59,774 bases of DNA from a virus. This document shows, piece by piece, positions 1 to 59,774 of the stretch (positions within the stretch are counted from its first letter, which is position 1; each line of letters begins with the position of its first letter). The position numbers were made by a program, and so were the translations under genes. The notes beneath the pieces are model-generated. The model searched no databases, had not been told where the DNA came from, and saw nothing but the letters and a program-made list of their open reading frames with translations. The stretch lies in IMG/VR virus record IMGVR_UViG_3300024259_000034; one strand, 5' to 3'.

Positions 1-127
1 TTCCTCGTTTACGACATGACGGATAAACTCTGATCGGGATTTGAAAAGACCAGCAGCAACCAAACCGTCAATCTTCGAAACCCGATCAGCGTACATCTTC
101 AGATATTTCCTTTCCATGACTCTCCTT
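1..127. repeat. Terminal direct repeat, left copy (identical to 59648..59774); circular-closure or assembly overlap
   Basis: Bases 1-127 are letter-for-letter identical to 59648-59774. Positions 1-117 duplicate the 5' part of the RHH gene that starts at 59764. Confidence 0.95.
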
Positions 128-1302: not shown

Positions 1303-1345
1303 TCTTTCTCCTTGATTTTTGGGTTTTTGTGTCATACCACTTTCA

Positions 1346-1362
1346 ATGCAGACGGTGTGCCA
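1346..1362 (-). promoter_or_regulatory. sigma-54-type -24/-12 promoter element, repeat copy 1
   Basis: Minus strand reads cTGGCACaccgtCTGCATtg, matching TGGCAC-N5-TTGCA with correct GG/GC spacing. It is part of a ~55-nt repeat (1316..1368) also present at 4231..4286 and 49226..49280. Confidence 0.55.
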
Positions 1363-1459
1363 GAAAAGCATAGACTCTAAGCGCAGTTTTATAAACACCT
1401 GACAGGCAGATCATATCAACTTCAATTAGATTCCGGCAGAATTTGCCGAGCAAAAAGTG

Positions 1460-4097: not shown

Positions 4098-4253
4098 TCA
4101 ACTCCTATTGTGCAGGTTCAGTTCAGCGTAATACATGGAGCCGTCAACCGGATTCCAGAATTTCCCATCTTCATATCTGAGGGCTGTCAAAACGAATTTT
4201 ACTTTTCCGATTAAGTTTCTCATGTTCGCCTTTTTTTGGGGTTTTTGTTTCAT
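4098..4253 (-). CDS. small hypothetical protein (51 aa), first gene after promoter repeat copy 2
   Basis: My own translation gives MKQKPQKKANMRNLIGKVKFVLTALRYEDGKFWNPVDGSMYYAELNLHNRS. It falls below the ORF-track length cut-off. Its ATG at 4253 is the conserved ATG of the repeat. Confidence 0.4.
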   Translation of the reverse strand: MKQKPQKKANMRNLIGKVKFVLTALRYEDGKFWNPVDGSMYYAELNLHNRS

Positions 4254-4263
4254 ACCCAATACA

Positions 4264-4280
4264 ATGCAGTAGGTGTGCCA
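4264..4280 (-). promoter_or_regulatory. sigma-54-type -24/-12 promoter element, repeat copy 2
   Basis: Minus strand reads cTGGCACacctaCTGCATtg, followed by the conserved GGTATGAAACAAAAACCCC. Confidence 0.55.
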
Positions 4281-4409
4281 GAAAACCCCATTAAAAAGAC
4301 ATAAAAATACCGTTGATATTATTGACTATTTACTGGCCAAAGCCTTAATAGCCTATCAACGGCGATGCTGCCTGATCATTTTTGCCGTGCTTAAACGGCA
4401 TATTTTGCC

Positions 4410-32611: not shown

Positions 32612-32727
32612 CGTATTCTATGGATTTTGCTCTGTTTTTAGTAAATAGCCCAACCTTTTGCTGAAGTGCTATTTACTTTTTGATATATTTAGCTGTTTTT
32701 CCCTCCTGCAACAAAAGTTGATCCAGA

Positions 32728-35430: not shown

Positions 35431-35984
35431 AACAACTCCTCCGGTATCATTCCATGCAGTTTGTACCATCTTCTCTCAAGGATGGCGTATCGGTAAACGT
35501 CCTCAAAATGACCGTCCAAAAATACTTCCTGTTTCAGGACTCCTTCTCTCAACATTCCGACCTTCTCAGCAACTTTGGCCATACCCTTATTGCCTTTGGC
35601 AGTCCCAAGCCAGATTTTGTTCAGGCCGAGCTTATAGAATCCATGGTAAAAAAGCAGTCTAATAGCAGCAGTAGCCAGTCCTTTTGCCCAATATTGTTTA
35701 TCGAATATACAGGTAAATTCAGCACTCCGATTTAACCATGAGATGTCCTGTAACATCACTGAACCAGCTAATGATGGCCTTGCTGGAGTTATTTTCCAGA
35801 CCGACCATAGAATATTCCCTTTTGGGTCCGCTTTCTCAAACCTGATTTTCGAGAACAGTCCATGAGAATTGTACTTGCAAATCTCCTGATCGAAAAACCA
35901 AATCTCGCTCATCTCTCTGGCGATATCATCCATTGGCCGGATTTGAACATCCTCGGTTTCGTAGATTACGATTTCTTCAGCCAT
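35427..35984 (-). CDS. GNAT N-acetyltransferase (PseH/RimL-like)
   Basis: 185 aa with YWAKGLATAAIRLLFYHGF, the acetyl-CoA binding motif A. Confidence 0.7.
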   Translation of the reverse strand: MAEEIVIYETEDVQIRPMDDIAREMSEIWFFDQEICKYNSHGLFSKIRFEKADPKGNILWSVWKITPARPSLAGSVMLQDISWLNRSAEFTCIFDKQYWAKGLATAAIRLLFYHGFYKLGLNKIWLGTAKGNKGMAKVAEKVGMLREGVLKQEVFLDGHFEDVYRYAILERRWYKLHGMIPEELL

Positions 35985-36204
35985 CTATCATCTCATGAAA
36001 TTTTAACTCGAATGGAATCTTTTGCCCATGTCGCTTCCGCATTTGCTGTCCAATTAATTCTTCAGCACCTTTATCGAGAATCAAATCTCTTTCAAACATC
36101 TCTACCAAGCAGTCAACCAAGACTTCGGGAGTTATTCTCTCATCTTCATCTCCACCACAATGCTTTTCCCAAATGTACCTTATGATCGGTTCAACCTCGC
36201 TCAT
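35977..36204 (-). CDS. hypothetical protein
   Basis: 75-aa ORF within the operon. Confidence 0.45.
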   Translation of the reverse strand: MSEVEPIIRYIWEKHCGGDEDERITPEVLVDCLVEMFERDLILDKGAEELIGQQMRKRHGQKIPFELKFHEMIDG

Positions 36205-36404
36205 AATTTCTCCGGTGTTTCATCCAAACAAATAACCTTAAACAAATCACGTTCCCAATTTCTCAACTGGATAGTGACCTCTTTCAGCTTATCCTTATCA
36301 ATTACACTTGAGCTATCAGCCACTATATCACGGAGCAAATTCAAAGCTGCAGACACCTTTACCCTATCAGAGACATCGGTATATTCCTGCTCCGTCATAC
36401 TCAT
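36201..36404 (-). CDS. hypothetical protein
   Basis: 67-aa ORF within the operon. Confidence 0.45.
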   Translation of the reverse strand: MSMTEQEYTDVSDRVKVSAALNLLRDIVADSSSVIDKDKLKEVTIQLRNWERDLFKVICLDETPEKL

Positions 36405-37345
36405 AATTCCTCCAGCATTTTTCCTAATTCGTCACGAGTCAATTGCCACGGATTGTTTCCTGATCCAAAAGTCCAACGATGCTCAGTTGGAGTGCTGGCT
36501 TTCCGTATCGTAAAATGTTTCATACGTTTATCCGTATAAATACTCTCCTCCTCTGTAATTAGGAACTCGTGCAACTTCTCTTGACCACGCAGACCTATGT
36601 ATTTTATCTCCGCCTCCGGAGCAATAAATTTCGCGATGTCCATCACTGACAAAGATGGCATATTGGGAACGTAAATCTCACCGCCTTTCATGTCCTCTAT
36701 CCTGTCACAAATAAATGCAGCGACTTCCTTCACCGTTATCCAGAATCGAGTCATCTTCGGGTCAGTCACTGTCAAAATGCCGAATTGCGCTTGTCTCCTG
36801 AATAGCTCAATCACAGATCCATTTGAACCAAACACATTTCCATATCGAATGCACGAGAATCTTGGGTCCCTCCCTCCCGAATAAGTGTTGGCCGTAATCA
36901 TCAGATCCTCGGCACACTTCTTCGTCGCCCCATATAGCGTAGTTGGATAAACGGCTTTATCGGTGCTGATCTGCACGACTTTTTCAACCACATTCCGGAC
37001 AGCAGCGTACACAATATTCTCAGCTCCACCAACATTCGTTTCGATACACTCCAGAGGATTCTCTTCGGCGGTATCAATTCTCTTGATCGCCGCGCAGTGG
37101 ATAATAATATCTGTGCCGATCGATGCCATGATAACTCGCTCTCGATCTCTGACATCTCCGATCAGGTAGGCAATATTTTCCGTGTATCCTTCCTCAGTCA
37201 ATTGCGCTCTCAACTCTGCCTGTTTATGCTCAGACCGACTGAAGATCCGTATTCCTCGTGGTTTGTACTTGTGCATGATCGTTCTTACCAGCATACTCCC
37301 TAAAGTGCCGGTTCCTCCAGTAATCAGAATCTCTTTACCGTTCAT
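36401..37345 (-). CDS. UDP-GlcNAc 4,6-dehydratase, PseB/FlaA1/SpsM-like (short CapD type)
   Basis: ILITGGTGTLGS Rossmann motif, SRSEHKQ, ISTDKAVYPTTLYGATK (YxxxK). Confidence 0.75.
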   Translation of the reverse strand: MNGKEILITGGTGTLGSMLVRTIMHKYKPRGIRIFSRSEHKQAELRAQLTEEGYTENIAYLIGDVRDRERVIMASIGTDIIIHCAAIKRIDTAEENPLECIETNVGGAENIVYAAVRNVVEKVVQISTDKAVYPTTLYGATKKCAEDLMITANTYSGGRDPRFSCIRYGNVFGSNGSVIELFRRQAQFGILTVTDPKMTRFWITVKEVAAFICDRIEDMKGGEIYVPNMPSLSVMDIAKFIAPEAEIKYIGLRGQEKLHEFLITEEESIYTDKRMKHFTIRKASTPTEHRWTFGSGNNPWQLTRDELGKMLEEL

Positions 37346-37557
37346 TCAATCCTCGCTGTAATTGTCCCAAATTTTGTCTTTTTTTGATCGATGTACTTCC
37401 GATAAAACGAACACTCAAACCAATCTGTCATCTTATCTCGATAGCAATACGGACCCATTTGTTTCCAGCATTTAGTGCAAAAAACCGCAGCTCTGTATCC
37501 TTTCTTGATTTCAGAGACAGTGACCGCAGCAAACCTATGCTCACAGTCATCCTTCAT
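37342..37557 (-). CDS. small Cys-rich hypothetical protein
   Basis: 71-aa ORF within the operon. Confidence 0.45.
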   Translation of the reverse strand: MKDDCEHRFAAVTVSEIKKGYRAAVFCTKCWKQMGPYCYRDKMTDWFECSFYRKYIDQKKTKFGTITARIE

Positions 37558-38386
37558 TGATTACCTTTCTACCTCTCAATCCGGTACCGGGATCGGCTTT
37601 CAAATACCGCTCAGTTTGCTGCTTCCTGATAATATCGAAATTGGGTGTTCCCCATGCCTCTTCTTGAACCCTGATACCAGTAATCGCACTCTCTAAAAAT
37701 GAAGCAGACCAGCAATGACCATGTACCGATTCCGCTCCTTTGTTGTCATCAAGATCAAAATGCGCCTCGATATATTCTGCTCCGGCTGCGACTGCTCCAT
37801 AAATCACATTCCTGTTTTTTGTATGATCAGACCAGCCCATTTTAAAACAATCTGGATATCGTTGACAAAAATCCTCAATCACCGCCAGATTGCATTCTTT
37901 TACTGCTGCAGGATACTTGGAAACACAGTGCATAATCGTCAGATCGATCTCATCTTCCTGAATCTCAGCCAACATTTCGAACAACTCTGTTTCATCCATC
38001 AGACCGATTGAAACAAACAGTGGTTTTTTGATCACCAATGCAGTTCTGTATAACTCAACCAGACCGGCTTCATGACTGGCTATCTTCAAGAAATCTGAAT
38101 ACTGATGATACATCGACATCCACGTTGGATCAAAAAACGAATATCCAATATTGATATGCTTCGCTATGGCATATTGTTTCATCACCGGGAGCCAGTGGGG
38201 TTTCAACTGTCTCTCCTCTGCCTGTCGATAATTCGGATGTGAGTATTCATAAAGCTGGTTGGCAGTGTAAAGCTGAAACTTCACTCCCCAACATCCAATA
38301 TCTTTCGCGACACTGATCAGATTCAGCGCACGGTCTAACTCTCCGTTGTGGTTGCTTCCCACTTCGGCAATAAATCTCGTTTCCAT
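37547..38386 (-). CDS. NeuB-family nonulosonic acid synthase (PseI/LegI/SpsE-like), no SAF domain
   Basis: FIAEVGSNHNGELDRALNLISVAKDIGCWGVKFQ. At 279 aa it is a TIM barrel only. Confidence 0.75.
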   Translation of the reverse strand: METRFIAEVGSNHNGELDRALNLISVAKDIGCWGVKFQLYTANQLYEYSHPNYRQAEERQLKPHWLPVMKQYAIAKHINIGYSFFDPTWMSMYHQYSDFLKIASHEAGLVELYRTALVIKKPLFVSIGLMDETELFEMLAEIQEDEIDLTIMHCVSKYPAAVKECNLAVIEDFCQRYPDCFKMGWSDHTKNRNVIYGAVAAGAEYIEAHFDLDDNKGAESVHGHCWSASFLESAITGIRVQEEAWGTPNFDIIRKQQTERYLKADPGTGLRGRKVINEG

Positions 38387-38883
38387 TCTTTCCTCGTTAT
38401 CGACGCTACATGGCTACTGTAGAACGTCTTGTTTTTCCAGAATCGATCAGTCAAGAAACCTTCATGGCGGAAACCCTGCTTTTTCCAGAATTTCCAGTTC
38501 TGTGTGGTGGCAATGACCTCGATAAAAATACAGTTCAGATTCGCGAGATTGAATCCGACCTCAAGCAATTTCCTGACAGCCTGTGTTCCATATCCCTGCT
38601 TCTGATAATCCGGTTTTACCAATAAACCCATCTCAGCAGTTCGATTCACAGCATCAATTTTATCAAGACCGCAGTAACCGATAAAATTAAACAACTTGAA
38701 TTCATTCCCATCATAAATGAAATAATACCGCTCCCGGTCTGACATATTCTTCACCCATTGCTCCTGACCCCAACCTTTTGCAGTCAGATCATCAGCTCTC
38801 AAGGAAAGCATCGATTCATTCCGCCATTGAGCGATCAGATCCAGTTCCGGCTGTTTGACTGTCATCTTCTCCAGCTTGATCAT
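38335..38883 (-). CDS. GNAT N-acetyltransferase
   Basis: 182 aa with YQKQGYGTQAVRKLLEVGF (motif A). Confidence 0.7.
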   Translation of the reverse strand: MIKLEKMTVKQPELDLIAQWRNESMLSLRADDLTAKGWGQEQWVKNMSDRERYYFIYDGNEFKLFNFIGYCGLDKIDAVNRTAEMGLLVKPDYQKQGYGTQAVRKLLEVGFNLANLNCIFIEVIATTQNWKFWKKQGFRHEGFLTDRFWKNKTFYSSHVASITRKEWKRDLLPKWEATTTES

Positions 38884-40202
38884 CTCAACTCCTCCACGTT
38901 CTCAGTGACCTTCTCAAACGCATTGATAATATCATCCAAATCTCCTCGGTTCGTTGGTGGCGCCAGATACAAGTGCAGGAATAGATCGTCTTTCCAGAGC
39001 TTTTCGACAACTGGAAGCGGTTTAATAAATCTATCAGCACCAATCGAATGATACCGCACTTCTTTATCTGGATTCTTGAACCGATCATCAAACAAAGGCA
39101 TCCTGTAAATCGGCTTGATATATCCACCACCAATCCTGACTCCCTCACTTTCTCGACCTCTCATCGGCTGTAATTCTGCCTTAACAGCTTCCAAAAATCG
39201 ATCTCGATGTAATTCAAGATAATCTTGATCGTAAAAAAACGCCTGGACATAGAACGTATGCGTACAGGATTCACGAATCGGCGCCGGGGTAATGAAAGGT
39301 ATGTTATTCAACCGAACTGCAAGATAATCGGCATTTTCGTTCCTTTTACCGATAAAGAAATCCAACTTCTTCAACTGCTCCTGCAGGATCGCTGCTTGAA
39401 TTTCGGTCATCCTCAGGTTCATTCCCCACAATTCTTTGTGCTTTTCCAGAACTGGTCGATGCTCCAAGTTCATCTCAGCGTCATTAATTACCGCCTCCGC
39501 ATGGTTTATGATCAACCGGCATCTCTCTGCCAACTCATCATCTATTGCAGTAATCATCCCGCCTTCTCCGGCTGTCATATGCTTGCCCTGAGTAAAACTG
39601 AAGCAACCGATATCTCCCAAATCCCCGGTATACAAATTCTCTGGATTTCCCATCAACCATGCTCCCGGTGCTTGCGCTGCATCTTCGATCAGATATATGC
39701 CTTTTTCCTGTGCAAATGCGATCAGCCTTTTATCAAATGGCTGGCCAAATAAATCGACGGCAATAATCGCTTTCGTATGTTCAGTGATCTTCGATTCCAC
39801 CGATTCCACATCGAGACAGAAATAATCTCTCTCAACATCTGCAAAAACTGGGGTAGCTCCACAAAGCATTGGAGCAGTAGCACTGCAAGCCATCGAATAT
39901 GGCGTGACAATCACTTCATTTCCCGGCTTTAATCCAATTGCCAGACAAGCGACATGCAAAGCGGAAGTGCAGCTATTCACAGCAATCGCGTGTTTGTGCT
40001 GAAACCTCTCCTTCCACATTTCCTCAAACTTCTGGACTTCAGTTCCGCCTCGATACTTCTGCCAGTTTCCTCGGTATCCAGACAGCATCTGAGATTCCAT
40101 AACTCTCTGGGCTGCTGATGCTTCCTCATACCCGATACAAGCCTGATTCGGGAACAGCTCTGTTCTGATCGGCTCACCGCCGTTGATTGCTAGTTTTGCC
40201 AC
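38880..40202 (-). CDS. DegT/DnrJ/EryC1/StrS-family sugar aminotransferase (PseC/LegC-like)
   Basis: 440 aa with the PLP-lysine motif CFSFTQGKHMTAGEGG. Confidence 0.8.
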   Translation of the reverse strand: MAKLAINGGEPIRTELFPNQACIGYEEASAAQRVMESQMLSGYRGNWQKYRGGTEVQKFEEMWKERFQHKHAIAVNSCTSALHVACLAIGLKPGNEVIVTPYSMACSATAPMLCGATPVFADVERDYFCLDVESVESKITEHTKAIIAVDLFGQPFDKRLIAFAQEKGIYLIEDAAQAPGAWLMGNPENLYTGDLGDIGCFSFTQGKHMTAGEGGMITAIDDELAERCRLIINHAEAVINDAEMNLEHRPVLEKHKELWGMNLRMTEIQAAILQEQLKKLDFFIGKRNENADYLAVRLNNIPFITPAPIRESCTHTFYVQAFFYDQDYLELHRDRFLEAVKAELQPMRGRESEGVRIGGGYIKPIYRMPLFDDRFKNPDKEVRYHSIGADRFIKPLPVVEKLWKDDLFLHLYLAPPTNRGDLDDIINAFEKVTENVEELR

Positions 40203-40212
40203 GCCATTCTCC

Positions 40213-41148
40213 TTATTTATTCGATGTCAACTTCTTCTGCAGATTCACTGCTGCATCGGCTCCCAACAAAGTCAGGAAATCCACGCCGTTAGTGCTTCCG
40301 CCTTTACCGTTTCCACCAATCACAATGGAAGGGACCAGTTGTGCTTTGCCAAGACTTCCGTACAGCGTCGTCATGATCTTCACCTGAGCCTCGATCTCTT
40401 TATCAAAAACATACTTAGGATCCAGTGCATTCTTCGCTGCTTTCTTCCTGGCTGCTGCCATAACCATCAAACCTTCAGCAATCTTACGCTGTTTGGCCAG
40501 GATCTCAATCTGCTTCAATTTCGCCTGTCGCTCAAGCTCAACCTCCTGACTCGCATTAATCACAGCAACTTCTTTGCGCTGTTCGGCACTGATTCTGGCT
40601 TTCTCTTTATCCTTCAGGGATTCAGCTCTCTGATCTTCCAAAGTTTTCAGACCTAACGCTTTGGCAGTTTCGGCTTCCTGTTGGGCTTTCTTCAGGTTCT
40701 GCCGTGCAAGTGCTTCATCTGCAGCCGATTTTTTCTGGCTTTCAAGACGTTCCAAAACCTTTTCTTCATAAACCACATCGATAATGGAAGCATCAACAAC
40801 CGTGATCCCATAATCAGTCAGAGGAGATTTCGTTCGCATATCCTTGCCGTCATCAGCTTTCCGCTTTCTTATGGTCACTCTCTGGCGGTCAGACAACTCA
40901 TCTTTGGTCTTTGCTCTTGATCCGGCTTTATCAATCTGCTGGTCAACAACAAAAATACCATTAATCATCTGGTCACGGAAATCCATACTCAACTGGCCAT
41001 TTCCACCAGAATAATGCTCTTCAACCGACATCAATCTGGCTGACGCTTTGGCAGTCTCTTCGGTCGCTCTCACCATCACATTTGAAACCAGAGTATCCTG
41101 ATCTCCAAATTCCCGGTGGATCTTCAGAAGCGGTTTTCCTGCCGGCAT
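40213..41148 (-). CDS. SPFH/band-7 (flotillin-like) protein, C-terminal part
   Basis: 311 aa with a coiled-coil EA-rich region. The upstream frame stays open to within the end of 41150..41500. Confidence 0.55.
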   Translation of the reverse strand: MPAGKPLLKIHREFGDQDTLVSNVMVRATEETAKASARLMSVEEHYSGGNGQLSMDFRDQMINGIFVVDQQIDKAGSRAKTKDELSDRQRVTIRKRKADDGKDMRTKSPLTDYGITVVDASIIDVVYEEKVLERLESQKKSAADEALARQNLKKAQQEAETAKALGLKTLEDQRAESLKDKEKARISAEQRKEVAVINASQEVELERQAKLKQIEILAKQRKIAEGLMVMAAARKKAAKNALDPKYVFDKEIEAQVKIMTTLYGSLGKAQLVPSIVIGGNGKGGSTNGVDFLTLLGADAAVNLQKKLTSNK

Positions 41149-41149
41149 T

Positions 41150-41500
41150 CTAAATCTGGCAACACCCTTCGCTCCGCCTGTCGTAGTGTCCAGAAATCAA
41201 TCTGGGGTTCGGCTCCAATTTTGAGGATGCCTTCGCGCTCGGTGTCCCTGTAAAGTTAACAGCAATCACCCTTTTGTAAATCGTGGGCGTTCCAAACAGT
41301 CTCATGTACGGTCCCGGCGTATCAATTACCGACATCGTTCCACCAACACTCTGCAGCACAATCCTCTCATCGGCATCGTTGAAATCGACGGTCTTGATTC
41401 CAAGTACCAAAAGCACAATAAACAAAATTACCGCTGGCACTCCGATTTTTACCATCTTTCGGAATGGCTTAGGAATCATACCTTCAATTGTTTCAGTCAT
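41150..41500 (-). CDS. TM anchor plus start of an SPFH domain (possibly the N-terminal part of a split gene)
   Basis: N-terminal TM helix (VPAVILFIVLLVLGI) followed by DERIVLQSVGGTMSVIDTPGPYMRLFG, an SPFH-like start. Confidence 0.5.
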   Translation of the reverse strand: MTETIEGMIPKPFRKMVKIGVPAVILFIVLLVLGIKTVDFNDADERIVLQSVGGTMSVIDTPGPYMRLFGTPTIYKRVIAVNFTGTPSAKASSKLEPNPRLISGHYDRRSEGCCQI

Positions 41501-41518
41501 CTTTAAACTCCTTCAATT

Positions 41519-41902
41519 TTAATTTAACAAAATCCTCAACTTCAGTCCCTGGCAGTGAAAGAACCTTGGGAAGAAACTCCCGCTTCTATGGAGATCAATC
41601 AGCGTTCCCTCAATCTCCGAAAGGCTGGAATCCGCCCCTTTCTGGCGGTCCAGTTCAATCAAGCCATCGATTAACCGATTCACAATGCTATCCGGATCCT
41701 CGATTAGCTTCCTCTGCTGGATCTTCTTTTCTTTCTCGCTTTTTGCCAGTTCGACAATCCAAAAGAAAACGCCAGCACCCATAACAACAAATATAACATT
41801 CACCACCATCGATAGTGCAATCATCACGATTTCCAAATTGCAAGTGTAAACGAACCTGCGATTATCAAAATCCACAGGATTACATAAAGCACCTTGTGCC
41901 AT
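41519..41902 (-). CDS. small membrane protein
   Basis: One TM helix (MIALSMVVNVIFVVMGAGVFFWIV). The start is ambiguous (41902 or 41824). Confidence 0.45.
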   Translation of the reverse strand: MAQGALCNPVDFDNRRFVYTCNLEIVMIALSMVVNVIFVVMGAGVFFWIVELAKSEKEKKIQQRKLIEDPDSIVNRLIDGLIELDRQKGADSSLSEIEGTLIDLHRSGSFFPRFFHCQGLKLRILLN

Positions 41903-41936
41903 CTTTTCGTCAAGACTCCTTCAACTACTTTCATCA

Positions 41937-42884
41937 TCATCCCTCCAAAACTTTATGGACAGCAATCGCATCTTCCGCATCACATTTCAGATCCTCTGAG
42001 CCGTCCAGGTATTTGACTGCGTTTTCCAACATAAAATGCAGATTCCATCCCATGTTCGTTGCCTGAGTTTTCGGCATTCCCAATTGCGGATAGCTGCCGT
42101 AAATACTTTCGTTCTCTATCGGATAAGTCGCCAATCTAGTTCCGTACTGGTAAAACTGGAACCTTCCGACTGAGCTGATTACATCTATCTCGAACGTGTA
42201 GGCTTTCCGGCCATCGACTCCGGTGAAAACCACATAAGGGCATCTCCCATACACAAAATCAGTTGTCAGGGTCGGGTCATCGCCATCTCTATCATAAATC
42301 GGCGTATGTTTTGGCGCTGCTCCCTCCAATGCACCAAACCACCAATTGCAGAGATCAATAGCGTGAGATCCATCATGCTTCAATCCTCGACCGTAAATCA
42401 CTCTCGCGTTGTAAATCTCAACTCCAGGCTTACTCAGTTTCTCATAAACTCCCTGATGGAATGCTTCAAATCTTCTGGAGTAATCGACCATTAGCGGGAC
42501 TCCAGCAGCCTCACAATAACCGTGCATCCACATCGCTTCATTAAGATCCATGCCAAACGGCTTCTCACAGATAATCAACTTCGGTTTCATATCAGCACAA
42601 TGCTTCACAACCTCCAGATGGAATTTCGTCGGCACTGCCACGATCATAATATCTGCCTCTGAAGTCACAATTGACGACCAGCCACAATCCCATTTCTCTC
42701 CGGCTTCCTTTGCTTTCCTATGATCCTCATCAAAAATGCTCACCAGATCGATTCTCTTGTGCGCCCAACATGCGTGTCCGTGGGTTAGAGGGACAGTCCG
42801 TTTATCCTTTTTGTCCTTTGACTCTGGCTTCAACGCTCCAATGGAACCGGCTCCGATAATCGTTGCTGTGTAATTTTTCATCAT
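41937..42884 (-). CDS. Gfo/Idh/MocA-family NAD(P) oxidoreductase
   Basis: TIIGAGSIGA Rossmann motif plus the ICEKPF motif. Confidence 0.75.
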   Translation of the reverse strand: MMKNYTATIIGAGSIGALKPESKDKKDKRTVPLTHGHACWAHKRIDLVSIFDEDHRKAKEAGEKWDCGWSSIVTSEADIMIVAVPTKFHLEVVKHCADMKPKLIICEKPFGMDLNEAMWMHGYCEAAGVPLMVDYSRRFEAFHQGVYEKLSKPGVEIYNARVIYGRGLKHDGSHAIDLCNWWFGALEGAAPKHTPIYDRDGDDPTLTTDFVYGRCPYVVFTGVDGRKAYTFEIDVISSVGRFQFYQYGTRLATYPIENESIYGSYPQLGMPKTQATNMGWNLHFMLENAVKYLDGSEDLKCDAEDAIAVHKVLEG

Positions 42885-43132
42885 CCTCTCTTTTTTTCAT
42901 TGGAAGTCAAACGCCGATCAAATAGTCCCACCTTCTTCTGGTAATACGCCTCGATCTTTTTCAATGCAGGGACTTCCTGATTCAACAGATTCGCATAATC
43001 GACACATGCCTGAACCATTGCATCCTGGGCTTCATAGGCATAAACAATAAACTCCTGATCATCAATAAACGTGACTCTGTATGGTCTGGCTGCAGTGTTG
43101 TTCACATCTTCTCCCAAAGATAATGAGCGCAA
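42881..43132 (-). CDS. hypothetical protein
   Basis: 83-aa ORF. Confidence 0.45.
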   Translation of the reverse strand: MRSLSLGEDVNNTAARPYRVTFIDDQEFIVYAYEAQDAMVQACVDYANLLNQEVPALKKIEAYYQKKVGLFDRRLTSNEKKRG

Positions 43133-43293
43133 TGCCTCGGGTAATCCTTACCTTGCCAAACATCGATTATCGTTTTGGCATCCGTCGCAATTCCAGCAGT
43201 ATCTCTTTGCCATAGCTCAAAAACTTCAACCAGCCTTTCAAGTGTCACTGTTTTAGTCGGCTGTGGTGGAGCTGTCGGTGATTCTTGTGTCAT
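43102..43293 (-). CDS. hypothetical protein
   Basis: 63-aa ORF with an ATGA overlap to the cytidylyltransferase gene. Confidence 0.4.
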   Translation of the reverse strand: MTQESPTAPPQPTKTVTLERLVEVFELWQRDTAGIATDAKTIIDVWQGKDYPRHCAHYLWEKM

Positions 43294-44024
43294 CCTTCCT
43301 CCGGTGCTTTGGTTTTCACACTGCGATTTAATTCCAACAGGTTCGGATGTGCCTTCAAAAACCTGACAACATCCAATGCAGTAAATCCAGGCGTGGATCT
43401 GAAGTGATGCCAGATGATATCAATCAACGCATAATCCTCTGGCGTATCTAACGTAATGCGGAGATCAGGCCATTTCAACTCTCCTTTTGCTTCGATATTA
43501 GCACATCGAAATGACGAGTCTTGCATGATATTCCAACCGACATGGATCGGATTCAGGATCTTATTCCTGATTTGATCTAATGCGGTAAAGGAGTAAACTT
43601 GCACATCTAACCCATCAGGAAACGACCTGATCCCAACATTGGAGGCATAATCAACCGCTTTATCACTGATGAATCGCTCGATCACATCATCCATAATATC
43701 CGGATCGATCAATGGACAGTCAGCGGTGATCTCAACAATGACATCAATTCCATATTCTTTCGCACACCGATAAATCCTTTCCAAAACATTATCCGGATCG
43801 CCATCGAACAAATAGATTCCGGCGCCAGCTTCATGGGCAACGGGAATCAGTTCGATATTTTTCTCAGACAAATAAGTTGCTACTATGGGGTTTAGACACC
43901 AGAACGAATTTCTGACTCTCTCGATCACACGCTGTAAGGCAGGTTTTCCGGCAAGCGATAGCATGGCTTTTCCCGGCAATCGGGTACTCTCCATGCGACA
44001 CTGAATGATTGGCACGATTCTCAT
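43290..44024 (-). CDS. CMP-sugar cytidylyltransferase (SpsF/PseF/NeuA-like, CTP_transf_3)
   Basis: IVPIIQCRMESTRLPGKAM matches the IQARxxSxRLPGK motif of the SpsF type. Confidence 0.7.
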   Translation of the reverse strand: MRIVPIIQCRMESTRLPGKAMLSLAGKPALQRVIERVRNSFWCLNPIVATYLSEKNIELIPVAHEAGAGIYLFDGDPDNVLERIYRCAKEYGIDVIVEITADCPLIDPDIMDDVIERFISDKAVDYASNVGIRSFPDGLDVQVYSFTALDQIRNKILNPIHVGWNIMQDSSFRCANIEAKGELKWPDLRITLDTPEDYALIDIIWHHFRSTPGFTALDVVRFLKAHPNLLELNRSVKTKAPEEG

Positions 44025-44067
44025 TTTATGTCTCCTGTACTATTTATAAACGATCTAAAAATTAAGT

Positions 44068-44453: not shown

Positions 44454-44636
44454 TTACCTCGGGCAATAGCATGGTCTTGCACTGCATTTCTTCCTCCATT
44501 CCAGCCCACCATCCAGACAAGTGATCGATCCGTAATCTATTGCCGGCGCATTTGCCGTGGAGCAGGTTTCCAGAAAAATCACAGCGATTATCATAATTAT
44601 CAGCGTAATGATCGTTATCAGTTTCTCCCAAGTCAT
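44454..44636 (-). CDS. small membrane/secreted protein
   Basis: 60 aa with the N-terminal hydrophobic helix LITIITLIIMIIAVIFL. Confidence 0.45.
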   Translation of the reverse strand: MTWEKLITIITLIIMIIAVIFLETCSTANAPAIDYGSITCLDGGLEWRKKCSARPCYCPR

Positions 44637-44953
44637 TTCCCCTCCTTTATTTTTTCAAGTGCTGCATCAGCTTGTTTCATGAACATTTCTAGGAATTTGT
44701 GAGGATCATCTTTGTTCTTCAAGAATTCGTAAGCACCTAGAAATGATTTATAAACCTCATGGGTGGATTGCTCTGCTGCCTTGTATCCATTTCTGAATTC
44801 TTCAATTTCTTCTTCCGTCATTAGATCAGGATGAAAATTTTTCTTTTCCTCTCTTAAAGCATCTTCAAAAGTCATCTTTCCTCCTATTGGTATATCCCCA
44901 CAAGCTGCTGATGGATGGTGACGTTTACCGCATATATCGCAATATTCAAACAT
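44633..44953 (-). CDS. hypothetical protein (N-terminal CxxC)
   Basis: Start trimmed to MFEYCDICG behind AGGAGAGAAG. The upstream part of the track ORF is the structured RNA instead. Confidence 0.55.
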   Translation of the reverse strand: MFEYCDICGKRHHPSAACGDIPIGGKMTFEDALREEKKNFHPDLMTEEEIEEFRNGYKAAEQSTHEVYKSFLGAYEFLKNKDDPHKFLEMFMKQADAALEKIKEGK

Positions 44954-44970
44954 CTTCTCTCCTGTTGAAC

Positions 44971-45100
44971 TGCCCCGGCAGGATTCGATACCTGCAACCC
45001 TACTAACTCCGGAGATTTCGGGAGCTGCTACCGGATAACCATTGTTATCACTCACACGCTTTAATTCTCCCATCTTCAATGCGACTTCAGCCACGGGGCA
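44971..45100 (-). ncRNA. ~130-nt tRNA-like structured RNA, copy A
   Basis: 7-bp terminal helix TGCCCCG/CGGGGCA, an adjacent T-arm-like hairpin GCAGG-TATCGAAT-CCTGC, and a GCTG...CAGC helix. It fills the gap between two CDSs. Confidence 0.5.
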
Positions 45101-45108
45101 GCATCTGG

Positions 45109-45411
45109 TTATATCAATTTGTTGTGCTTATACGGACGCTTCAGATTTACTGCGTGTTTTTCACCAATTTCAGAATCCAAATCGATCCCAAAATGTTCAG
45201 CTAGATCAAACACCCTAATTGCTGTATCTGCCAATTCTTCAGCAAAATTTACATTGTCACCTTTCCGAAATGCCTCAAGTGCTTCTGAAACCTCAGAATG
45301 AATTAGGCATAATTTTTCTGGAACATCTGACCACCCCTTTCCTTCCCAAAAGCCGTGTTTAACTGAATTGTCGTGGACTTCCTTTTGCCATTCTCTGATC
45401 GTTTTAGGCAT
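45109..45411 (-). CDS. MazG-like nucleotide pyrophosphohydrolase
   Basis: LIHSEVSEALEAFRKG...EELADTAIRVFDLAEHFGIDL. Confidence 0.75.
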   Translation of the reverse strand: MPKTIREWQKEVHDNSVKHGFWEGKGWSDVPEKLCLIHSEVSEALEAFRKGDNVNFAEELADTAIRVFDLAEHFGIDLDSEIGEKHAVNLKRPYKHNKLI

Positions 45412-46657: not shown

Positions 46658-46789
46658 ACCGCTGACAGGATTTGAACCTGCGCCTAGTGTTACAGTCGCA
46701 CACCAGTTTTACCTTTTTTCGTCACAGTCAGCGTCCTGACCTTTACCTACTTGTTTCAAGGCACGATTACCAGACTCTCGCACAGCGGT
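46658..46789 (-). ncRNA. ~132-nt tRNA-like structured RNA, copy B
   Basis: Acceptor-like helix ACCGCTG/CAGCGGT, U8, D arm CGA-GAGTCTGGTAA-TCG, and a canonical T arm GCAGG-TTCAAAT-CCTGT. About 80 nt of extra hairpins replace a normal anticodon/variable region. Confidence 0.5.
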
Positions 46790-49208: not shown

Positions 49209-49257
49209 TTTAAAGCCTTTTTTCGAGTTTTTGGTTTTTTTAGTCATACCTCTAACA

Positions 49258-49274
49258 ATGCAGACGGTATGCCA
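49258..49274 (-). promoter_or_regulatory. sigma-54-type -24/-12 promoter element, repeat copy 3
   Basis: Minus strand reads aTGGCATaccgtCTGCATtg, followed by GGTATGACTAAAAAAACC. Confidence 0.5.
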
Positions 49275-49343
49275 TAAAACCATAAGTCTCGAAACATAGG
49301 ATTGATAGTTCCTGGAGGAGTCCATCGCATTTGCAATCTGATA

Positions 49344-50593: not shown

Positions 50594-50926
50594 TCAGAAC
50601 TCCTTGCCTCCGTGTTTGTATTCTCGGCCAGAATTAAACTGAATCTTCGCGATCAACGCCTCGGCAATCTTATGACCTTTGGCATGTCCGAAATCCATTA
50701 TCCGAATAATGACATCAGCCAGCTCTTCTTCAACTGCAGAAAACTCAGGAATATGATCGCTCGGAGGATTACCATGTCTTAGACCTTCAAGGCATTCGCT
50801 CAATTCTGAGTGCATCAATGCTATCATCTCACCGTTATTCCGATCCCCCTTCCACCATCCTTTTTGAATCGCCATGTCGTTCACATATCCGGCAAGTTCA
50901 TTGTAACTTTTTATAAATCCAGTCAT
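50594..50926 (-). CDS. MazG-like nucleotide pyrophosphohydrolase (second copy)
   Basis: LMHSELSECLEGLR...EEELADVIIRIMDFG. Confidence 0.75.
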   Translation of the reverse strand: MTGFIKSYNELAGYVNDMAIQKGWWKGDRNNGEMIALMHSELSECLEGLRHGNPPSDHIPEFSAVEEELADVIIRIMDFGHAKGHKIAEALIAKIQFNSGREYKHGGKEF

Positions 50927-51135
50927 ATCCCTCTCACTTTAAGCTCATCGATCAAATCAACTCTCCCGGCTAACCATGCTTTCCTGGCGAAACTGACCAT
51001 CCCCATCGGGCCTAACATCACATAATCACGACGAGCTTCTGCATTGATCGTTTCCAGCCATGCTTTGAATTTTTCTTCTTCGTTTGCGACAATCTCTTCA
51101 TCGCCCTTCTTTTCATTGCACTTTGCACATTCCAT
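50923..51135 (-). CDS. hypothetical protein (N-terminal CxxC)
   Basis: 70-aa ORF behind the RBS AGGAGAGATT. Confidence 0.5.
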   Translation of the reverse strand: MECAKCNEKKGDEEIVANEEEKFKAWLETINAEARRDYVMLGPMGMVSFARKAWLAGRVDLIDELKVRGI

Positions 51136-51155
51136 AATCTCTCCTGATTTTGAAC

Positions 51156-51282
51156 TGCCCCGGCAGGATTTGATACCTGCACCCGCTTAGGAGTATCGCC
51201 TACTTTTATACAATTTGGATCACCTCGTTAATGTATCCATTCTCAAAAGTTTAACTTAGGGGTTTTCTTTCCCTACGGAGCA
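51156..51282 (-). ncRNA. ~127-nt tRNA-like structured RNA, copy C
   Basis: Terminal helix TGCTCCG/CGGGGCA (one G-U pair) and T-arm-like GCAGG-TATCAAAT-CCTGC. Its 3' 32 nt match copy A at 31 of 32 positions. Confidence 0.5.
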
Positions 51283-51290
51283 GCTTTCAA

Positions 51291-52205
51291 TTAAATAACT
51301 CCTCTCAAAACATCAACCAACGTCCCACCATATGTGCTTTCAGAATCGAATCCTTCGCTCATATTTCCGTCAGTCACTCTCTTGCAAATCTTTTCAAAGG
51401 CTCTCTCCTTCAGCTTTTCGATCTGGTCAATGAGATACCAGAATCTTGCAGTTCCGCCTTGGGTCCGGTGAAACAATTTGATAGTCACCTGGAACAGATC
51501 ACCTGATTTGTAGATCGGGATCGCCAAAACAAACTGAGGAGGAGGAGAAAAATTCTTCTGTCCGACTTCCTCATTCTCATAGTGCAGAATCTGCCGGCCT
51601 GATTGCGGATCGAATTTTGAGCTCAATTTCTCCTGGGCGGTAACTTTCAGATCAAGGATCATCCTCGCCAATTCCTGGGCTGAGATGTTCTCAATCTCTT
51701 TATTGTCATCGCCTTCGATCTTCCCGCACATGAAATCGGATCGGTTCTCTTCAAGGAACATCGCCAAATCTTCCTGATCGAAATGATCATTCCGGTTGCC
51801 CTTCTGGTTTCTAAACCAAGTATCGTACTGTTTCGAGAATCCCAAATTCAAAAAAGCGGTATGATCACCATAACCGGCTTTTTTATCAGCGTGGTCATTC
51901 AATATCGCCTTAATCTGGCCTCTTTCCTCATCGGCAATGATAATGGTTTCGTTGAAATCTTTGTGCTTCGAGACATACGAATTAAAGCTCTCAACCGCTG
52001 TAAATGTCCGGCTTCCGCGCTTTCTGGTTGGCCTCTCCAGTTCGTTCTGGATCGTTTGCAGATTGAATCCATTTGGCACAAGCACCGTCGTTTCCTCAAC
52101 TCCTTCCTCTCTCGGCACTTGTTTGATCTCCGCTGTTTTTCTACCAGCAGTCAGAATCGAATCTACAAAATTCGACAATACCTTCACTTCGGTAACTTCA
52201 TCCAT
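51291..52205 (-). CDS. DUF2303 (YfdQ)-like protein
   Basis: 304 aa with overall resemblance to phage YfdQ-family proteins, judged from memory. Confidence 0.4.
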   Translation of the reverse strand: MDEVTEVKVLSNFVDSILTAGRKTAEIKQVPREEGVEETTVLVPNGFNLQTIQNELERPTRKRGSRTFTAVESFNSYVSKHKDFNETIIIADEERGQIKAILNDHADKKAGYGDHTAFLNLGFSKQYDTWFRNQKGNRNDHFDQEDLAMFLEENRSDFMCGKIEGDDNKEIENISAQELARMILDLKVTAQEKLSSKFDPQSGRQILHYENEEVGQKNFSPPPQFVLAIPIYKSGDLFQVTIKLFHRTQGGTARFWYLIDQIEKLKERAFEKICKRVTDGNMSEGFDSESTYGGTLVDVLRGVI

Positions 52206-59479: not shown

Positions 59480-59764
59480 TTAATCGCCTTTTGTCGCTAT
59501 TTTTGCCAGATATTTTCCGATTCCGAACTCAATTGCTCCAGAAATCTTCCCTCCGAACTGTTTTTTAGCAATTTTATCCAGTTTCCGTATATCTTTTTCT
59601 TCCATCGTAACGCTCACTCTTCGGATATTCCCAAGACCATCCTCCAGTTCCTCGTTTACGACATGACGGATAAACTCTGATCGGGATTTGAAAAGACCAG
59701 CAGCAACCAAACCGTCAATCTTCGAAACCCGATCAGCGTACATCTTCAGATATTTCCTTTCCAT
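59480..59764 (-). CDS. ribbon-helix-helix (CopG/Arc-type) regulator
   Basis: YLKMYADRVSKIDGLVAAGLFKSRSEFIRHVV is an RHH signature. The start codon and its AAGGAGAG RBS lie in the terminal repeat, 8 nt after the radC stop once the contig is circularised. Confidence 0.7.
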   Translation of the reverse strand: MERKYLKMYADRVSKIDGLVAAGLFKSRSEFIRHVVNEELEDGLGNIRRVSVTMEEKDIRKLDKIAKKQFGGKISGAIEFGIGKYLAKIATKGD

Positions 59765-59774
59765 GACTCTCCTT
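59648..59774. repeat. Terminal direct repeat, right copy (identical to 1..127)
   Basis: Exact 127-nt identity with the left end. Confidence 0.95.

What the first reader, a model, noticed from the sequence alone, without database searches (positions are those of the whole stretch)
44971..45100. Paired ~130-nt tRNA-like structured RNAs (copies A and C) with a shared 3' module and a compensating 5' strand
The intergenic segments 44971..45100 and 51156..51282 share a nearly identical 32-nt 3' block (44965..44996 vs 51150..51181, 31 of 32 positions): TGCAGGTATC(G/A)AATCCTGCCGGGGCAGTTCAA. This is a T-arm-like hairpin, GCAGG-8 nt-CCTGC, followed by CGGGGCA.

The ~85-nt interiors are unrelated in sequence. 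Even so, each copy has the complement of CGGGGCA at its extreme 5' end (TGCCCCG in A; TGCTCCG in C, which keeps pairing through a G-U). The conserved feature is therefore a closing, acceptor-like helix.

Both elements start 8 nt after a stop codon and end 17-20 nt before the RBS and ATG of a small CxxC protein. No canonical anticodon arm can be drawn. Candidate roles are RNase P/Z processing punctuation, tRNA mimicry (decoy or Y-RNA/YrlA-like), or a 5'-UTR regulatory domain.
Basis: seen in the sequence. Interest (0 to 1): 0.7.

Follow-up and report, generated by a model that had tools for sequence, protein, structure and literature searches.

The report
Phage tRNA-like RNAs with swappable cores
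The two ~130-base intergenic segments are real structured RNAs from a large, uncatalogued, phage-restricted family: a shell derived from leucine tRNA (closing stem, D arm, altered T arm) around a middle part that carries no anticodon and differs completely even between near-identical phages.

Summary
Copy A (44971-45100) and copy C (51156-51282) lie on the minus strand. Each starts 8 nt after a stop codon and ends 17-20 nt before the next start codon. They share a T-arm with an 8-nt loop plus CGGGGCA, and each has the complementary 5' strand.

They are not tRNAs for ARAGORN or Rfam 15. In 79% of these a 7-nt complement lies upstream, against 17% at control positions. It is usually followed by U8-G9 and a D arm identical to that of tRNA-Leu.

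A covariance model built only from other phages scores A at 55.8 bits and C at 44.9 bits; real tRNAs score 25 or less. A third, generic tRNA-like element (B, 46658-46789) scores 17.6.

Family traits: virtually absent from cellular genomes; encoded CCA enriched about tenfold; mostly packed between small co-oriented ORFs; no conserved neighbouring gene. At orthologous loci the flanks are 86-99.75% identical while the interiors are unrelated.

Best reading (inferred): host tRNA-processing enzymes excise a stable RNA whose variable core is the payload. Function is unknown. I found no prior description.

The parts
44971..45100 (-). Copy A, a 130-nt tRNA-like RNA and member of the phage tRNA-Leu-derived family with an 8-nt T loop
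   Evidence: Model R1 scores it 55.8 bits, E=1e-12, over the full model length. The fold closes the terminal helix. Sequence.
45094..45100 (-). A: 5' acceptor-like strand UGCCCCG, followed by U8 G9 at 45092-45093
   Evidence: Seven Watson-Crick pairs with 44971-44977. U8 is invariant in the family.
45081..45091 (-). A: reduced D-arm region GCUGAAGUCGC. With U8 G9, UGGCUGAAG matches the family consensus UGGCGGAAG at 8 of 9 positions.
   Evidence: Alignment A1 and the R1 alignment. The D stem is weak here (2 pairs).
44996..45080 (-). A: variable interior with three predicted hairpins, no anticodon arm, ending in the conserved U before the T stem
   Evidence: ARAGORN calls it only at an 80% threshold with a forced 35-nt 'intron'. 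No similarity to C.
44978..44995 (-). A: T arm GCAGG-UAUCGAAU-CCUGC (5-bp stem, 8-nt loop)
   Evidence: The T stem covaries in family members found through the D arm.
44971..44977 (-). A: 3' acceptor-like strand CGGGGCA. The discriminator G is at 44970; no CCA is encoded.
51156..51282 (-). Copy C, a 127-nt member of the same family. 5' strand UGCUCCG at 51276-51282, T arm at 51163-51180, 3' strand at 51156-51162.
   Evidence: R1 scores it 44.9 bits, E=8.5e-10. Fold; sequence.
46658..46789 (-). Copy B, a 132-nt generic tRNA-like element: ACCGCUG-UG-D arm with GG ... GCAGG-UUCAAAU-CCUGU-CAGCGGU. It has a canonical 7-nt T loop, an ~80-nt interior and no anticodon loop.
   Evidence: Descriptor scan, sequence and fold. 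R1 gives 17.6 bits, within the range of ordinary tRNAs. The Rfam tRNA model gives 20.1 bits, below its threshold of 29.
45109..45411 (-). Upstream ORF of A (100 aa, MazG-like). Its stop codon lies 8 nt before A.
44633..44953 (-). Downstream ORF of A (CxxC protein). The likely true start is the ATG at 44953, preceded by AGGAGAG. Public gene callers extend it to the GTG at 45094, through A.
51291..52205 (-). Upstream ORF of C (304 aa, DUF2303 / phrog_210). Its stop codon lies 8 nt before C.
50923..51135 (-). Downstream ORF of C (70-aa CxxC protein). Its ATG lies 20 nt after C.

Best explanation
A and C are two paralogous genes for tRNA-like small RNAs. They belong to a large, phage-restricted family that descends from tRNA-Leu.

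The family keeps the 'top half and elbow' of a tRNA:
- a 7-bp acceptor helix of free sequence;
- U8 and G9;
- a D arm of the type GCGGAAG..AGACGC;
- a U before the T stem;
- a 5-bp T stem with a derived 8-nt loop, UAUCRAAU.

The anticodon and variable-arm region is replaced by a structured insert of 20-200 nt with no conserved sequence.

Proposed mechanism (inferred, not shown). The elements are transcribed as part of the long minus-strand operon of small accessory genes. RNase P recognises the shell at the 5' end. RNase Z or exonucleases, plus the CCA-adding enzyme, act at the 3' end. This releases a discrete, nuclease-resistant RNA of about 130 nt and at the same time cuts the polycistronic mRNA 8 nt after one gene and about 10 nt before the next ribosome-binding site.

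In this reading the shell is a processing and stability chassis, a natural counterpart of the engineered 'tRNA scaffold'. The fast-changing interior is the specific payload, whose target is unknown. The altered T loop, and the loss of G18-G19 in most members, would keep the RNA out of translation.
For: Shown:
- 79% of these have a 7-nt complement 30-300 nt upstream, against 16.6% at control positions. 65% have the complement followed by UG or UA, against 1.9% at controls.
- On the shell alignment 99.2% of cells are paired and 12 of 15 pairs change on both sides. These include 4 of 5 T-stem pairs and one D-stem pair, neither of which was used to select the sequences.
- Model R1, built from 34 members of other phages, scores A 55.8 and C 44.9 bits. 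Class II tRNAs score 20-25 and other tRNAs 10-17.
- The D arm is 100% identical to that of E. coli tRNA-Leu genes over 21-22 nt.
- In the family U8 is 100%, G9 92%, and the U before the T stem 99%. Encoded CCA is 15% against a chance rate of 1.6%. Pairing does not extend clearly beyond position -1:73.
- The family is viral. Cellular genomes (596 Gb) gave 54 hits, about 35 of which I calculate would arise by chance. About 14 of the 54 carry the family signature.
- The modal context equals that of the window: a stop codon 0-9 nt upstream and a start codon 10-30 nt downstream, co-oriented small ORFs, and no conserved neighbour.
- Only 15% of elements lie next to tRNA genes.
- Two lineages show orthologous loci with flanks 80-99.75% identical and interiors unrelated in sequence and length.
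- Interiors fold better than shuffled sequence, -0.215 against -0.184 kcal/mol per nt.
- No promoter or terminator lies at the elements.

Inferred from established knowledge: RNase P, RNase Z and the CCA-adding enzyme recognise the acceptor/T minihelix. The scaffold analogy follows from that.
Against: - There are no RNA data, so excision, end positions and stability are not demonstrated.
- A and C have weak or atypical D arms, a G discriminator and no encoded CCA.
- In A and C the helix can extend 2-3 bp beyond the 7-bp stem, which could shift or hinder RNase P cleavage.
- If processing alone were the purpose, any tRNA type would serve. The strict conservation of the Leu-type D arm and the odd T loop then hints at a specific partner that this model does not name.
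- No target was found for the interior. It has no antisense match in the phage genome, no anticodon-loop mimicry, and interiors are not shared between contigs.
- Interior turnover could be neutral, driven by recombination between the conserved shell ends.
- No divergent relative of this phage was found, so A and C have no orthologue-level covariation.
Confidence: 0.6

Rival explanations
1. Pure mRNA punctuation. The shell exists only to recruit RNase P/Z and separate the upstream and downstream cistrons, as in mitochondrial tRNA punctuation. The interior has no function and drifts or is swapped neutrally.
For: Elements are tightly sandwiched between co-oriented ORFs. No neighbour or target is conserved. 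The conserved shell ends could act as recombination anchors, which would explain interior replacement.
Against: Interiors are long (20-200 nt) and more structured than shuffles, although minimal members of 56-70 nt exist. About 15% of elements sit in tRNA arrays with no ORF to separate, as in phAPEC8. The sequence-level conservation of the D arm and the derived T loop exceeds what RNase P needs.
Confidence: 0.2
2. A cis-acting 5'-UTR element that controls translation or stability of the downstream small gene, for example by sequestering the ribosome-binding site or protecting the 5' end.
For: The 3' end lies 17-20 nt from the ATG, and in the family this gap peaks at 10-30 nt. Anti-Shine-Dalgarno-like CUCC and CUCCU are modestly enriched in interiors: 24 against 13.9±3.3, and 9 against 3.2±1.8.
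Against: Downstream genes are unrelated across loci. Some members have no downstream ORF or lie in tRNA arrays. Encoded CCA is enriched. MFE folds of A and C with their RBS leave the SD outside the element.
Confidence: 0.08
3. A functional aminoacyl-acceptor or enzyme decoy. The Leu-type shell is charged by, or sequesters, LeuRS or another factor that reads the tRNA elbow or acceptor, such as a defence nuclease or nucleotidyltransferase acting on class II tRNAs.
For: The D arm is identical to tRNA-Leu. By established knowledge, LeuRS does not read the anticodon. A73 is the commonest discriminator at 48%, and CCA is enriched. Hypervariable payloads fit an arms race.
Against: The discriminator is not conserved; it is G in A and C. 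G18-G19 are lost in most members and the T loop is altered, and both are LeuRS-relevant tertiary elements. No anticodon-loop mimicry was found. There is no biochemical evidence.
Confidence: 0.08
4. Decayed tRNA pseudogenes, or recombination (attP-like) sites that merely retain tRNA 3' sequence.
For: Phage attP sites often carry the T arm and 3' acceptor strand of a tRNA; BLAST of the 3' block hits such sites in actinophages. ARAGORN and Rfam reject the elements as tRNAs.
Against: The 5' strand is maintained by compensatory change in more than 100 phages. The derived 8-nt T loop is itself conserved. There are three copies in a compact genome. No integrase was found among the 20 ORFs scanned (19 of them 250 aa or longer). 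Virulent phAPEC8-type phages carry a member.
Confidence: 0.03
5. Copy A is coding: the 153-aa ORF 44633-45094 is the real gene.
For: The frame is open, and public gene callers report the 153-aa product.
Against: The GTG at 45094 has no SD, while a strong AGGAGAG lies 6 nt before the ATG at 44953. The stretch matches an RNA model at 55.8 bits. Paralogue C is not inside an ORF. A 47-codon open frame arises by chance about 10% of the time. No homologue has the extension.
Confidence: 0.02

Closest known systems
Canonical class II tRNA-Leu
   Same: 7-bp acceptor stem, U8, a D arm identical at sequence level (GGUGGCGGAAUUGGUAGACGC in some members), a 5-bp T stem, CCA encoded in some members, and occasional location in tRNA arrays.
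   Different: No anticodon arm. The T loop has 8 nt (UAUCRAAU). Most members lack G18-G19. The interior is 20-200 nt of unrelated sequence. ARAGORN and Rfam RF00005 reject the elements.
Phage T4 species 1 RNA (rnaC, 139 nt), a stable RNA of unknown function in the T4 tRNA cluster
   Same: A phage-encoded stable RNA of about 130-140 nt with a T arm near its 3' end, sitting among tRNA genes. Its function has been unknown for decades.
   Different: rnaC has a canonical 7-nt T loop (CCGGG-UUCGAAU-CCCGG) and no Leu-type D arm. R1 scores it only 9.4 bits, so no homology is detectable.
Engineered tRNA scaffold for recombinant RNA expression (Ponchon and Dardel; from my own knowledge)
   Same: The architecture is the same: the acceptor, D and T arms are kept, and the anticodon arm is replaced by an arbitrary structured insert. 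The chimera is processed by tRNA enzymes and is stable.
   Different: The scaffold is man-made. Here the arrangement is natural, phage-specific, and has an altered T loop. Processing of the natural elements is not shown.
tmRNA tRNA-like domain
   Same: The RNA ends form an acceptor stem next to a T arm. A large non-tRNA insert lies in between, and there is no anticodon.
   Different: No G3-U70, no D-stem-less TLD, no tag ORF and no pseudoknots. ARAGORN tmRNA mode and the Rfam tmRNA families give no match. The shell is of Leu type, not Ala type.
Bacterial Y RNA YrlA (tRNA-mimicking module; Chen et al. 2014, PMC4201824)
   Same: A non-coding RNA with a tRNA-like T/D/acceptor module. Some are phage-encoded.
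   Different: In YrlA the RNA termini form the Ro60-binding stem and the tRNA-like part is internal. Here the termini form the acceptor stem. Rfam gives no match. An Rsr/Ro60 gene was not specifically searched for; none appeared among the ORFs annotated.

Membership tests
Phage tRNA-Leu-derived tRNA-like RNAs with an 8-nt T loop (family defined here; model R1) | 7-bp closing helix directly adjoining the T stem, maintained by compensatory change | tested here: met
   A has 7 of 7 Watson-Crick pairs. C has 6 Watson-Crick pairs plus one G-U. In the family, 79% of T-arm hits have the complement against 16.6% of controls.
Phage tRNA-Leu-derived tRNA-like RNAs with an 8-nt T loop (family defined here; model R1) | T arm of a 5-bp stem plus loop UAUCRAAU, preceded by U | tested here: met
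   A has U-GCAGG-UAUCGAAU-CCUGC and C has U-GCAGG-UAUCAAAU-CCUGC. The U before the stem is present in 85 of 86 members.
Phage tRNA-Leu-derived tRNA-like RNAs with an 8-nt T loop (family defined here; model R1) | U8 plus purine 9, followed by the Leu-type D arm GCGGAAG..AGACGC | tested here: inconclusive
   U8 is present in both copies. A has UGGCUGAAG-UCGC, which is 8 of 9 for the first block but lacks the loop and has a weak stem. C has UA plus a different hairpin, GGG-AAAGAAAA-CCC.
Phage tRNA-Leu-derived tRNA-like RNAs with an 8-nt T loop (family defined here; model R1) | Score with a covariance model trained on other members clearly above that of genuine tRNAs | tested here: met
   A scores 55.8 bits (E=1e-12) and C 44.9 bits (E=8.5e-10). 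Class II tRNAs score 20-25 and other tRNAs 10-17. B scores 17.6 and is therefore not a specific member.
Phage tRNA-Leu-derived tRNA-like RNAs with an 8-nt T loop (family defined here; model R1) | Non-conserved structured interior without an anticodon arm, in an intergenic position co-oriented with the flanking ORFs | tested here: met
Canonical tRNA (Rfam RF00005 / ARAGORN) | Anticodon stem with a 7-nt loop, a 7-nt T loop, and a score above threshold | tested here: not met
   ARAGORN at default settings finds none. It calls the elements only at an 80% threshold with forced 35- and 57-nt 'introns' and inconsistent anticodons. Rfam gives no match for A even at E<=10.
tRNA interrupted by a group I intron | Group I catalytic core inside the anticodon loop | tested here: not met
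   The window has no Rfam intron match. Inserts of about 85 nt are too short for a group I intron (established knowledge).
tmRNA | Alanine identity pair G3-U70, a tag reading frame and pseudoknots | tested here: not met
   ARAGORN -m finds nothing at an 80% threshold. Rfam gives no match. Pair 3-70 is C-G in both A and C.
YrlA / bacterial Y RNA | Terminal Ro60-binding stem with an internal tRNA-like module, and an associated rsr gene | tested here: not met
   Rfam gives no match. Here the termini form the acceptor-like stem. The rsr gene was not specifically searched for.
Substrate of RNase P / RNase Z / CCA-adding enzyme (works like a pre-tRNA) | Cleavage at +1 and after the discriminator, followed by CCA addition | not testable with these tools
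   Only indirect evidence exists: the 12-bp acceptor/T stack is present, and encoded CCA is enriched tenfold in the family. Testing needs RNA end-mapping or in-vitro cleavage.

The most novel reading that the evidence does not exclude
Phages carry a natural 'tRNA scaffold' system. A conserved tRNA-Leu-derived chassis is processed and stabilised by the universal tRNA maturation machinery. It displays hypervariable RNA payloads that are replaced wholesale between near-identical genomes. This would make it an RNA-level counterpart of fast-evolving anti-defence or host-takeover accessory genes. The altered D/T-loop elbow would act as the mark that diverts the RNA from translation to a dedicated partner.
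Probability: 0.3. Interest if true: 0.85.

Novelty: new variant of a known kind. Interest (0 to 1): 0.72.

Why it matters
If the family is what it appears to be, it is one of the more widespread phage non-coding RNA classes still missing from Rfam and from genome annotation.

- Narrow exact-match scans alone gave well over a hundred viral contigs.
- 88 cultured Escherichia-type phage records carry an unannotated member.
- Because E. coli phages of the phAPEC8 group carry a member, the function can be tested directly.
- The family gives a natural precedent for the tRNA scaffold used in RNA engineering.
- Its constant-shell, replaceable-core behaviour at orthologous loci raises the question of what phage small RNAs are selected for.
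- On the practical side, gene callers currently translate through such elements, as with the 153-aa ORF here. A covariance model would correct these annotations.

Tried and rejected
- **ARAGORN** with intron, relaxed-threshold, tmRNA and mitochondrial modes gave only forced calls (tRNA-Ala(agc) and tRNA-Val(aac) with 'introns'). I rejected these as artefacts of the low threshold.
- **Rfam** at gathering threshold and at E<=10 gave nothing for A or for a typical member.
- **Close relatives of the phage:** megablast against phages, the search for related loci with the DUF2303 protein and a metagenome scan for the A/C-specific 3' block all gave none. Protein look-ups returned only 100%-identical copies of the same phage. 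No orthologue-level covariation is therefore possible.
- **Conserved neighbouring protein:** none found.
- **Antisense targets of the interiors within the phage genome:** none beyond chance.
- **Anticodon-loop decoy idea:** 7-nt YU...R loops are not enriched.
- **Cassette sharing:** two interiors searched in IMG/VR occur only in their own contig.
- **D-loop GAUA / T-loop UAUC kissing pair:** complementary in many members. But members with other D loops keep the same T loop, and the sister group keeps the D loop with a different T loop, so there is no covariation. Not adopted.
- **SD sequestration:** motif enrichment is weak and the folds do not support it.
- **Promoter or terminator reading:** nothing lies at the elements.
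- **First CM design:** mixing shell-only and full sequences was abandoned because MAFFT split the D arm.
- **Literature:** searches, including the sequence motifs as text, found no description. The library holds only open-access papers.

Full report
**1. The observation**

The window is a complete, circularly assembled phage genome: bases 1-127 repeat at 59648-59774. It is a myovirus with Mu-like tail and head genes and has no close cultured relative. Almost all genes lie on the minus strand, and so do the two elements.

Read 5'->3' on that strand, copy A is 45100->44971 (130 nt) and copy C is 51282->51156 (127 nt).

- The shared 32-nt block matches at 31 of 32 positions. Its 26-nt core occurs only twice in the window, and none of 100 shuffles gave a match.
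- Each copy has at its 5' end the complement of CGGGGCA: UGCCCCG in A, and UGCUCCG in C with one G-U pair.
- Each copy begins 8 nt after a stop codon. A ends 17 nt and C ends 20 nt before an ATG that is preceded by AGGAGAG.
- The interiors show no similarity.
- Both fold with the terminal helix closed and the T hairpin formed (z = -2.3 and -2.8).

A descriptor scan found a third element that the finding does not describe. Copy B lies at 46658-46789 on the minus strand. It is 132 nt long and has a canonical UUCAAAU T loop and GG in its D loop.

**2. These are not tRNAs for the standard tools**

- ARAGORN at default settings finds nothing in the window.
- Rfam 15 finds nothing at gathering thresholds, and nothing for A even at E<=10.
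- ARAGORN calls A and C only at an 80% threshold, with forced introns of 35 and 57 nt and arbitrary anticodons.
- B gets a sub-threshold partial tRNA match of 20.1 bits against a threshold of 29.

**3. A large family appears**

- In 77 of 97 distinct hits with enough upstream sequence, the 7 nt after the T arm have a complement 30-300 nt upstream. At control positions the rate is 16.6%.
- In 65% the complement is followed by UG or UA, against 1.9% of controls.
- The acceptor sequences differ freely between contigs. What follows them is strikingly constant: U8, G9 and GCGGAAG(A)UAGACGC.
- In members with GG in the loop, this D arm is identical over 21-22 nt to the D arm of E. coli tRNA-Leu genes.
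- Element length runs from 56 to about 250 nt, and the interior has no conserved sequence.

A second scan anchored on the D arm (TGGCGGAAGATAGACGC) recovered three kinds of partner:

- members whose T stems differ but keep the 8-nt loop (GUAGG/CCUAC, CCAAG/CUUGG, ACCAG/CUGGU and others);
- a sister group whose 3' hairpin has a 7-bp stem and a UGARAGU loop;
- a few with canonical T loops.

On a 64-sequence shell alignment, 99.2% of cells pair and 12 of 15 pairs show changes on both sides. The covariation score is 0.659, against 0.150 in shuffles and about 0.1 when the 3' partners are slid. The acceptor part of this count is partly circular, because I selected elements by their complement. The T-stem and D-stem changes, and the control rates, are independent of that selection.

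**4. Formal membership**

I built covariance model R1 from 34 members of other phages and ran it over the whole window without filters. It finds exactly:

| Element | Coordinates | Bits | E-value |
|---|---|---|---|
| A | 44971-45100 | 55.8 | 1e-12 |
| C | 51156-51282 | 44.9 | 8.5e-10 |
| B | 46658-46789 | 17.6 | 0.018 |

It finds nothing else of note.

For comparison, genuine class II tRNAs score 20-25 bits, other tRNAs 10-17 bits, and T4 rnaC 9.4 bits. A and C are therefore true members, although their D arms are atypical. B is only generically tRNA-like.

**5. Properties of the family**

- **It is viral.** In 596 Gb of bacterial and archaeal genomes the same T-arm pattern gave 54 hits. By my calculation about 35 are expected by chance. 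About 14 of the 54 carry the family signature, mostly in MAG contigs and one Petrimonas genome, probably prophage.
- **Cultured phages carry it unannotated.**
  - A 76-nt member lies between tRNA-Asn and tRNA-Thr in phAPEC8. Its anticodon arm is replaced by a hairpin with a tetraloop.
  - That member is conserved at 95% or more in 88 phage records.
  - Another member is in Lactobacillus phage SAC12B.
- **Most members are not in tRNA arrays.** Only 20 of 132 lie within 300 nt of a tRNA gene.
- **The typical setting matches the window.** Small ORFs are co-oriented on both sides, the stop codon lies 0-9 nt upstream and the start codon 10-30 nt downstream. No neighbouring protein family is conserved.
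- **Sequence features.** The discriminator is A in 48%. CCA is encoded in 15%, against a chance rate of 1.6%. Pairing does not clearly extend beyond -1:73.
- **Interiors.** They are more stable than shuffled sequence but show no excess of anticodon-like loops. One interior holds a complete canonical tRNA: L022, tRNA at 2766-2838 inside the element at 2720-2866.

**6. The interior is replaceable**

Five orthologous loci (L005, L031, L053, L089 and L094, the last identical to the Petrimonas locus L219) have identical shells and flanks 86-99.75% identical. Their interiors are 52, 72, 97 and 136 nt long and show no detectable similarity. The divergence starts inside the D loop and ends at the U before the T stem.

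A second lineage (L011 against L068 and L153) behaves the same way. Two such interiors, searched across IMG/VR, are singletons.

The window's A and C, with the same 3' module and unrelated interiors, are the paralogous version of this pattern.

**7. Mechanism**

Shown: a conserved, covarying tRNA-like shell descended from tRNA-Leu, with no anticodon, restricted to phages, embedded in operons, and carrying a hypervariable structured core.

Inferred: the acceptor/T minihelix plus elbow is what RNase P, RNase Z and the CCA-adding enzyme recognise (established knowledge), and the tenfold CCA enrichment fits that. I therefore propose the following.

- The elements are excised from the operon transcript as stable RNAs of about 130 nt.
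- The same cuts sever the mRNA at gene boundaries.
- The shell acts as a chassis and the core as the payload.

The purpose of the payload is unknown. I tested four ideas for it:

- antisense pairing to the phage genome: not supported;
- anticodon-loop decoy: not supported;
- sharing of interior cassettes between contigs: not supported;
- sequestration of the Shine-Dalgarno sequence: only weakly hinted.

The conserved Leu-type D arm and the derived T loop suggest a specific, still unnamed, reader of the elbow.

Rival explanations are pure punctuation, a cis 5'-UTR element, an acceptor or decoy for LeuRS or a defence enzyme, a pseudogene or att site, and coding sequence. They are weighed in the rival-explanations section of this report.

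The ORF through A is most simply a caller artefact, for four reasons:

- the GTG at 45094 has no SD, while a strong SD precedes the ATG at 44953;
- the stretch matches the RNA model;
- C lies in no ORF;
- no homologue has the extension.

**8. Comparison with known systems, and novelty**

The closest known systems are tRNA-Leu itself (the ancestor), T4 species 1 RNA, the tmRNA tRNA-like domain, YrlA, and the engineered tRNA scaffold. The last is the closest in how it would work. The elements fail the membership tests for tRNA, tmRNA, YrlA and intron-containing tRNA.

I found no description of the family in Rfam 15, in GenBank phage annotation, or in the searchable literature. A 2023 catalogue of viral candidate RNAs mentions generic tRNA-like candidates without characterising them (PMC10690425). 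The literature library is open-access only, so a prior description cannot be excluded.

I rate this a new variant of a known kind (tRNA-like non-coding RNAs).

**9. Verdict**

- The elements are members of a widespread, apparently undescribed phage RNA family with an unusual constant-shell, variable-core behaviour.
- Function and processing remain to be shown experimentally. phAPEC8-type E. coli phages offer a ready system for that.

Noticed in passing
window 46658-46789 (minus strand): A third ~130-nt tRNA-like element ('copy B') sits between two small ORFs. It has a 7-bp acceptor helix, U8 G9, a D arm with GG, a canonical T arm GCAGG-UUCAAAU-CCUGU, and an ~80-nt interior without an anticodon loop. 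It is followed by UCAA, much like A and C.
   Followed up: yes
window 1316-1372, 4234-4290, 49228-49284: A 57-nt repeat occurs in three copies (81-84% identity). On the gene (minus) strand each reads TGGCA(C/T)-N5-CTGCAT, a sigma-54-type -24/-12 promoter pattern. About 15 nt later comes GGTATGA and a small ORF starting M-(T/K)-(Q/K)-K. The copies may be phage promoters dependent on host sigma-54.
   Followed up: partly
window about 32700-44030 (minus strand): A sugar pathway unusual for a phage. It comprises a 913-aa MptE-like/TPR protein (Maf-like), NeuB, a DegT-type aminotransferase, a GNAT acetyltransferase, a GFO_IDH oxidoreductase, an epimerase/dehydratase and a CMP-sugar cytidylyltransferase. 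Together these form a nonulosonic-acid (pseudaminic/legionaminic/sialic-type) biosynthesis and transfer set.
   Followed up: partly
window 1-127 and 59648-59774: An exact 127-nt terminal direct repeat, showing the window is a circularly closed assembly of a ~59.6-kb phage genome. The same phage occurs at 99.96-100% identity (all but one 100%) in the seven public contigs examined (ENA ERZ272..., Logan SRR7618778, SRR8437085).
   Followed up: yes
loci L178, L151, L181, L174, L124, L127 and others (D-arm-anchored scan): A sister group of the RNA family. It has the same tRNA-Leu-like 5' part (N7-UGGCGGAAGAUAGACGC) and a covarying closing helix. Its 3' hairpin, however, has a 7-bp stem and a UGARAGU loop (e.g. 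GCAAGGGUGAAAGUCCCUUGC). It accounts for 24 of 68 new loci.
   Followed up: partly
L022 2720-2866; L138; L141: Interiors can hold tRNA parts. A whole canonical tRNA (Rfam 43.7 bits, 2766-2838) is nested inside the L022 element. Extra T-arm-like hairpins (GGUUCAAGUCC, GGUGAAAGUCC) occur inside L138 and L141. Some members carry the insert inside the D loop instead (L035, L227).
   Followed up: partly
L121 (phAPEC8, NC_020079) 2452-2527; 88 phage records: A 76-nt unannotated family member lies between tRNA-Asn and tRNA-Thr in the tRNA array of Phapecoctavirus-type E. coli phages. It is conserved at 95% or more. The neighbouring annotated 'tRNA-Asn' is itself 86 nt long and has a class II shape.
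   Followed up: partly
window 44633-45094 (minus strand): Public gene calls (ENA/Logan) annotate a 153-aa protein whose first 47 codons run through RNA element A. This is probably a mis-called start; the likely start is the ATG at 44953.
   Followed up: yes
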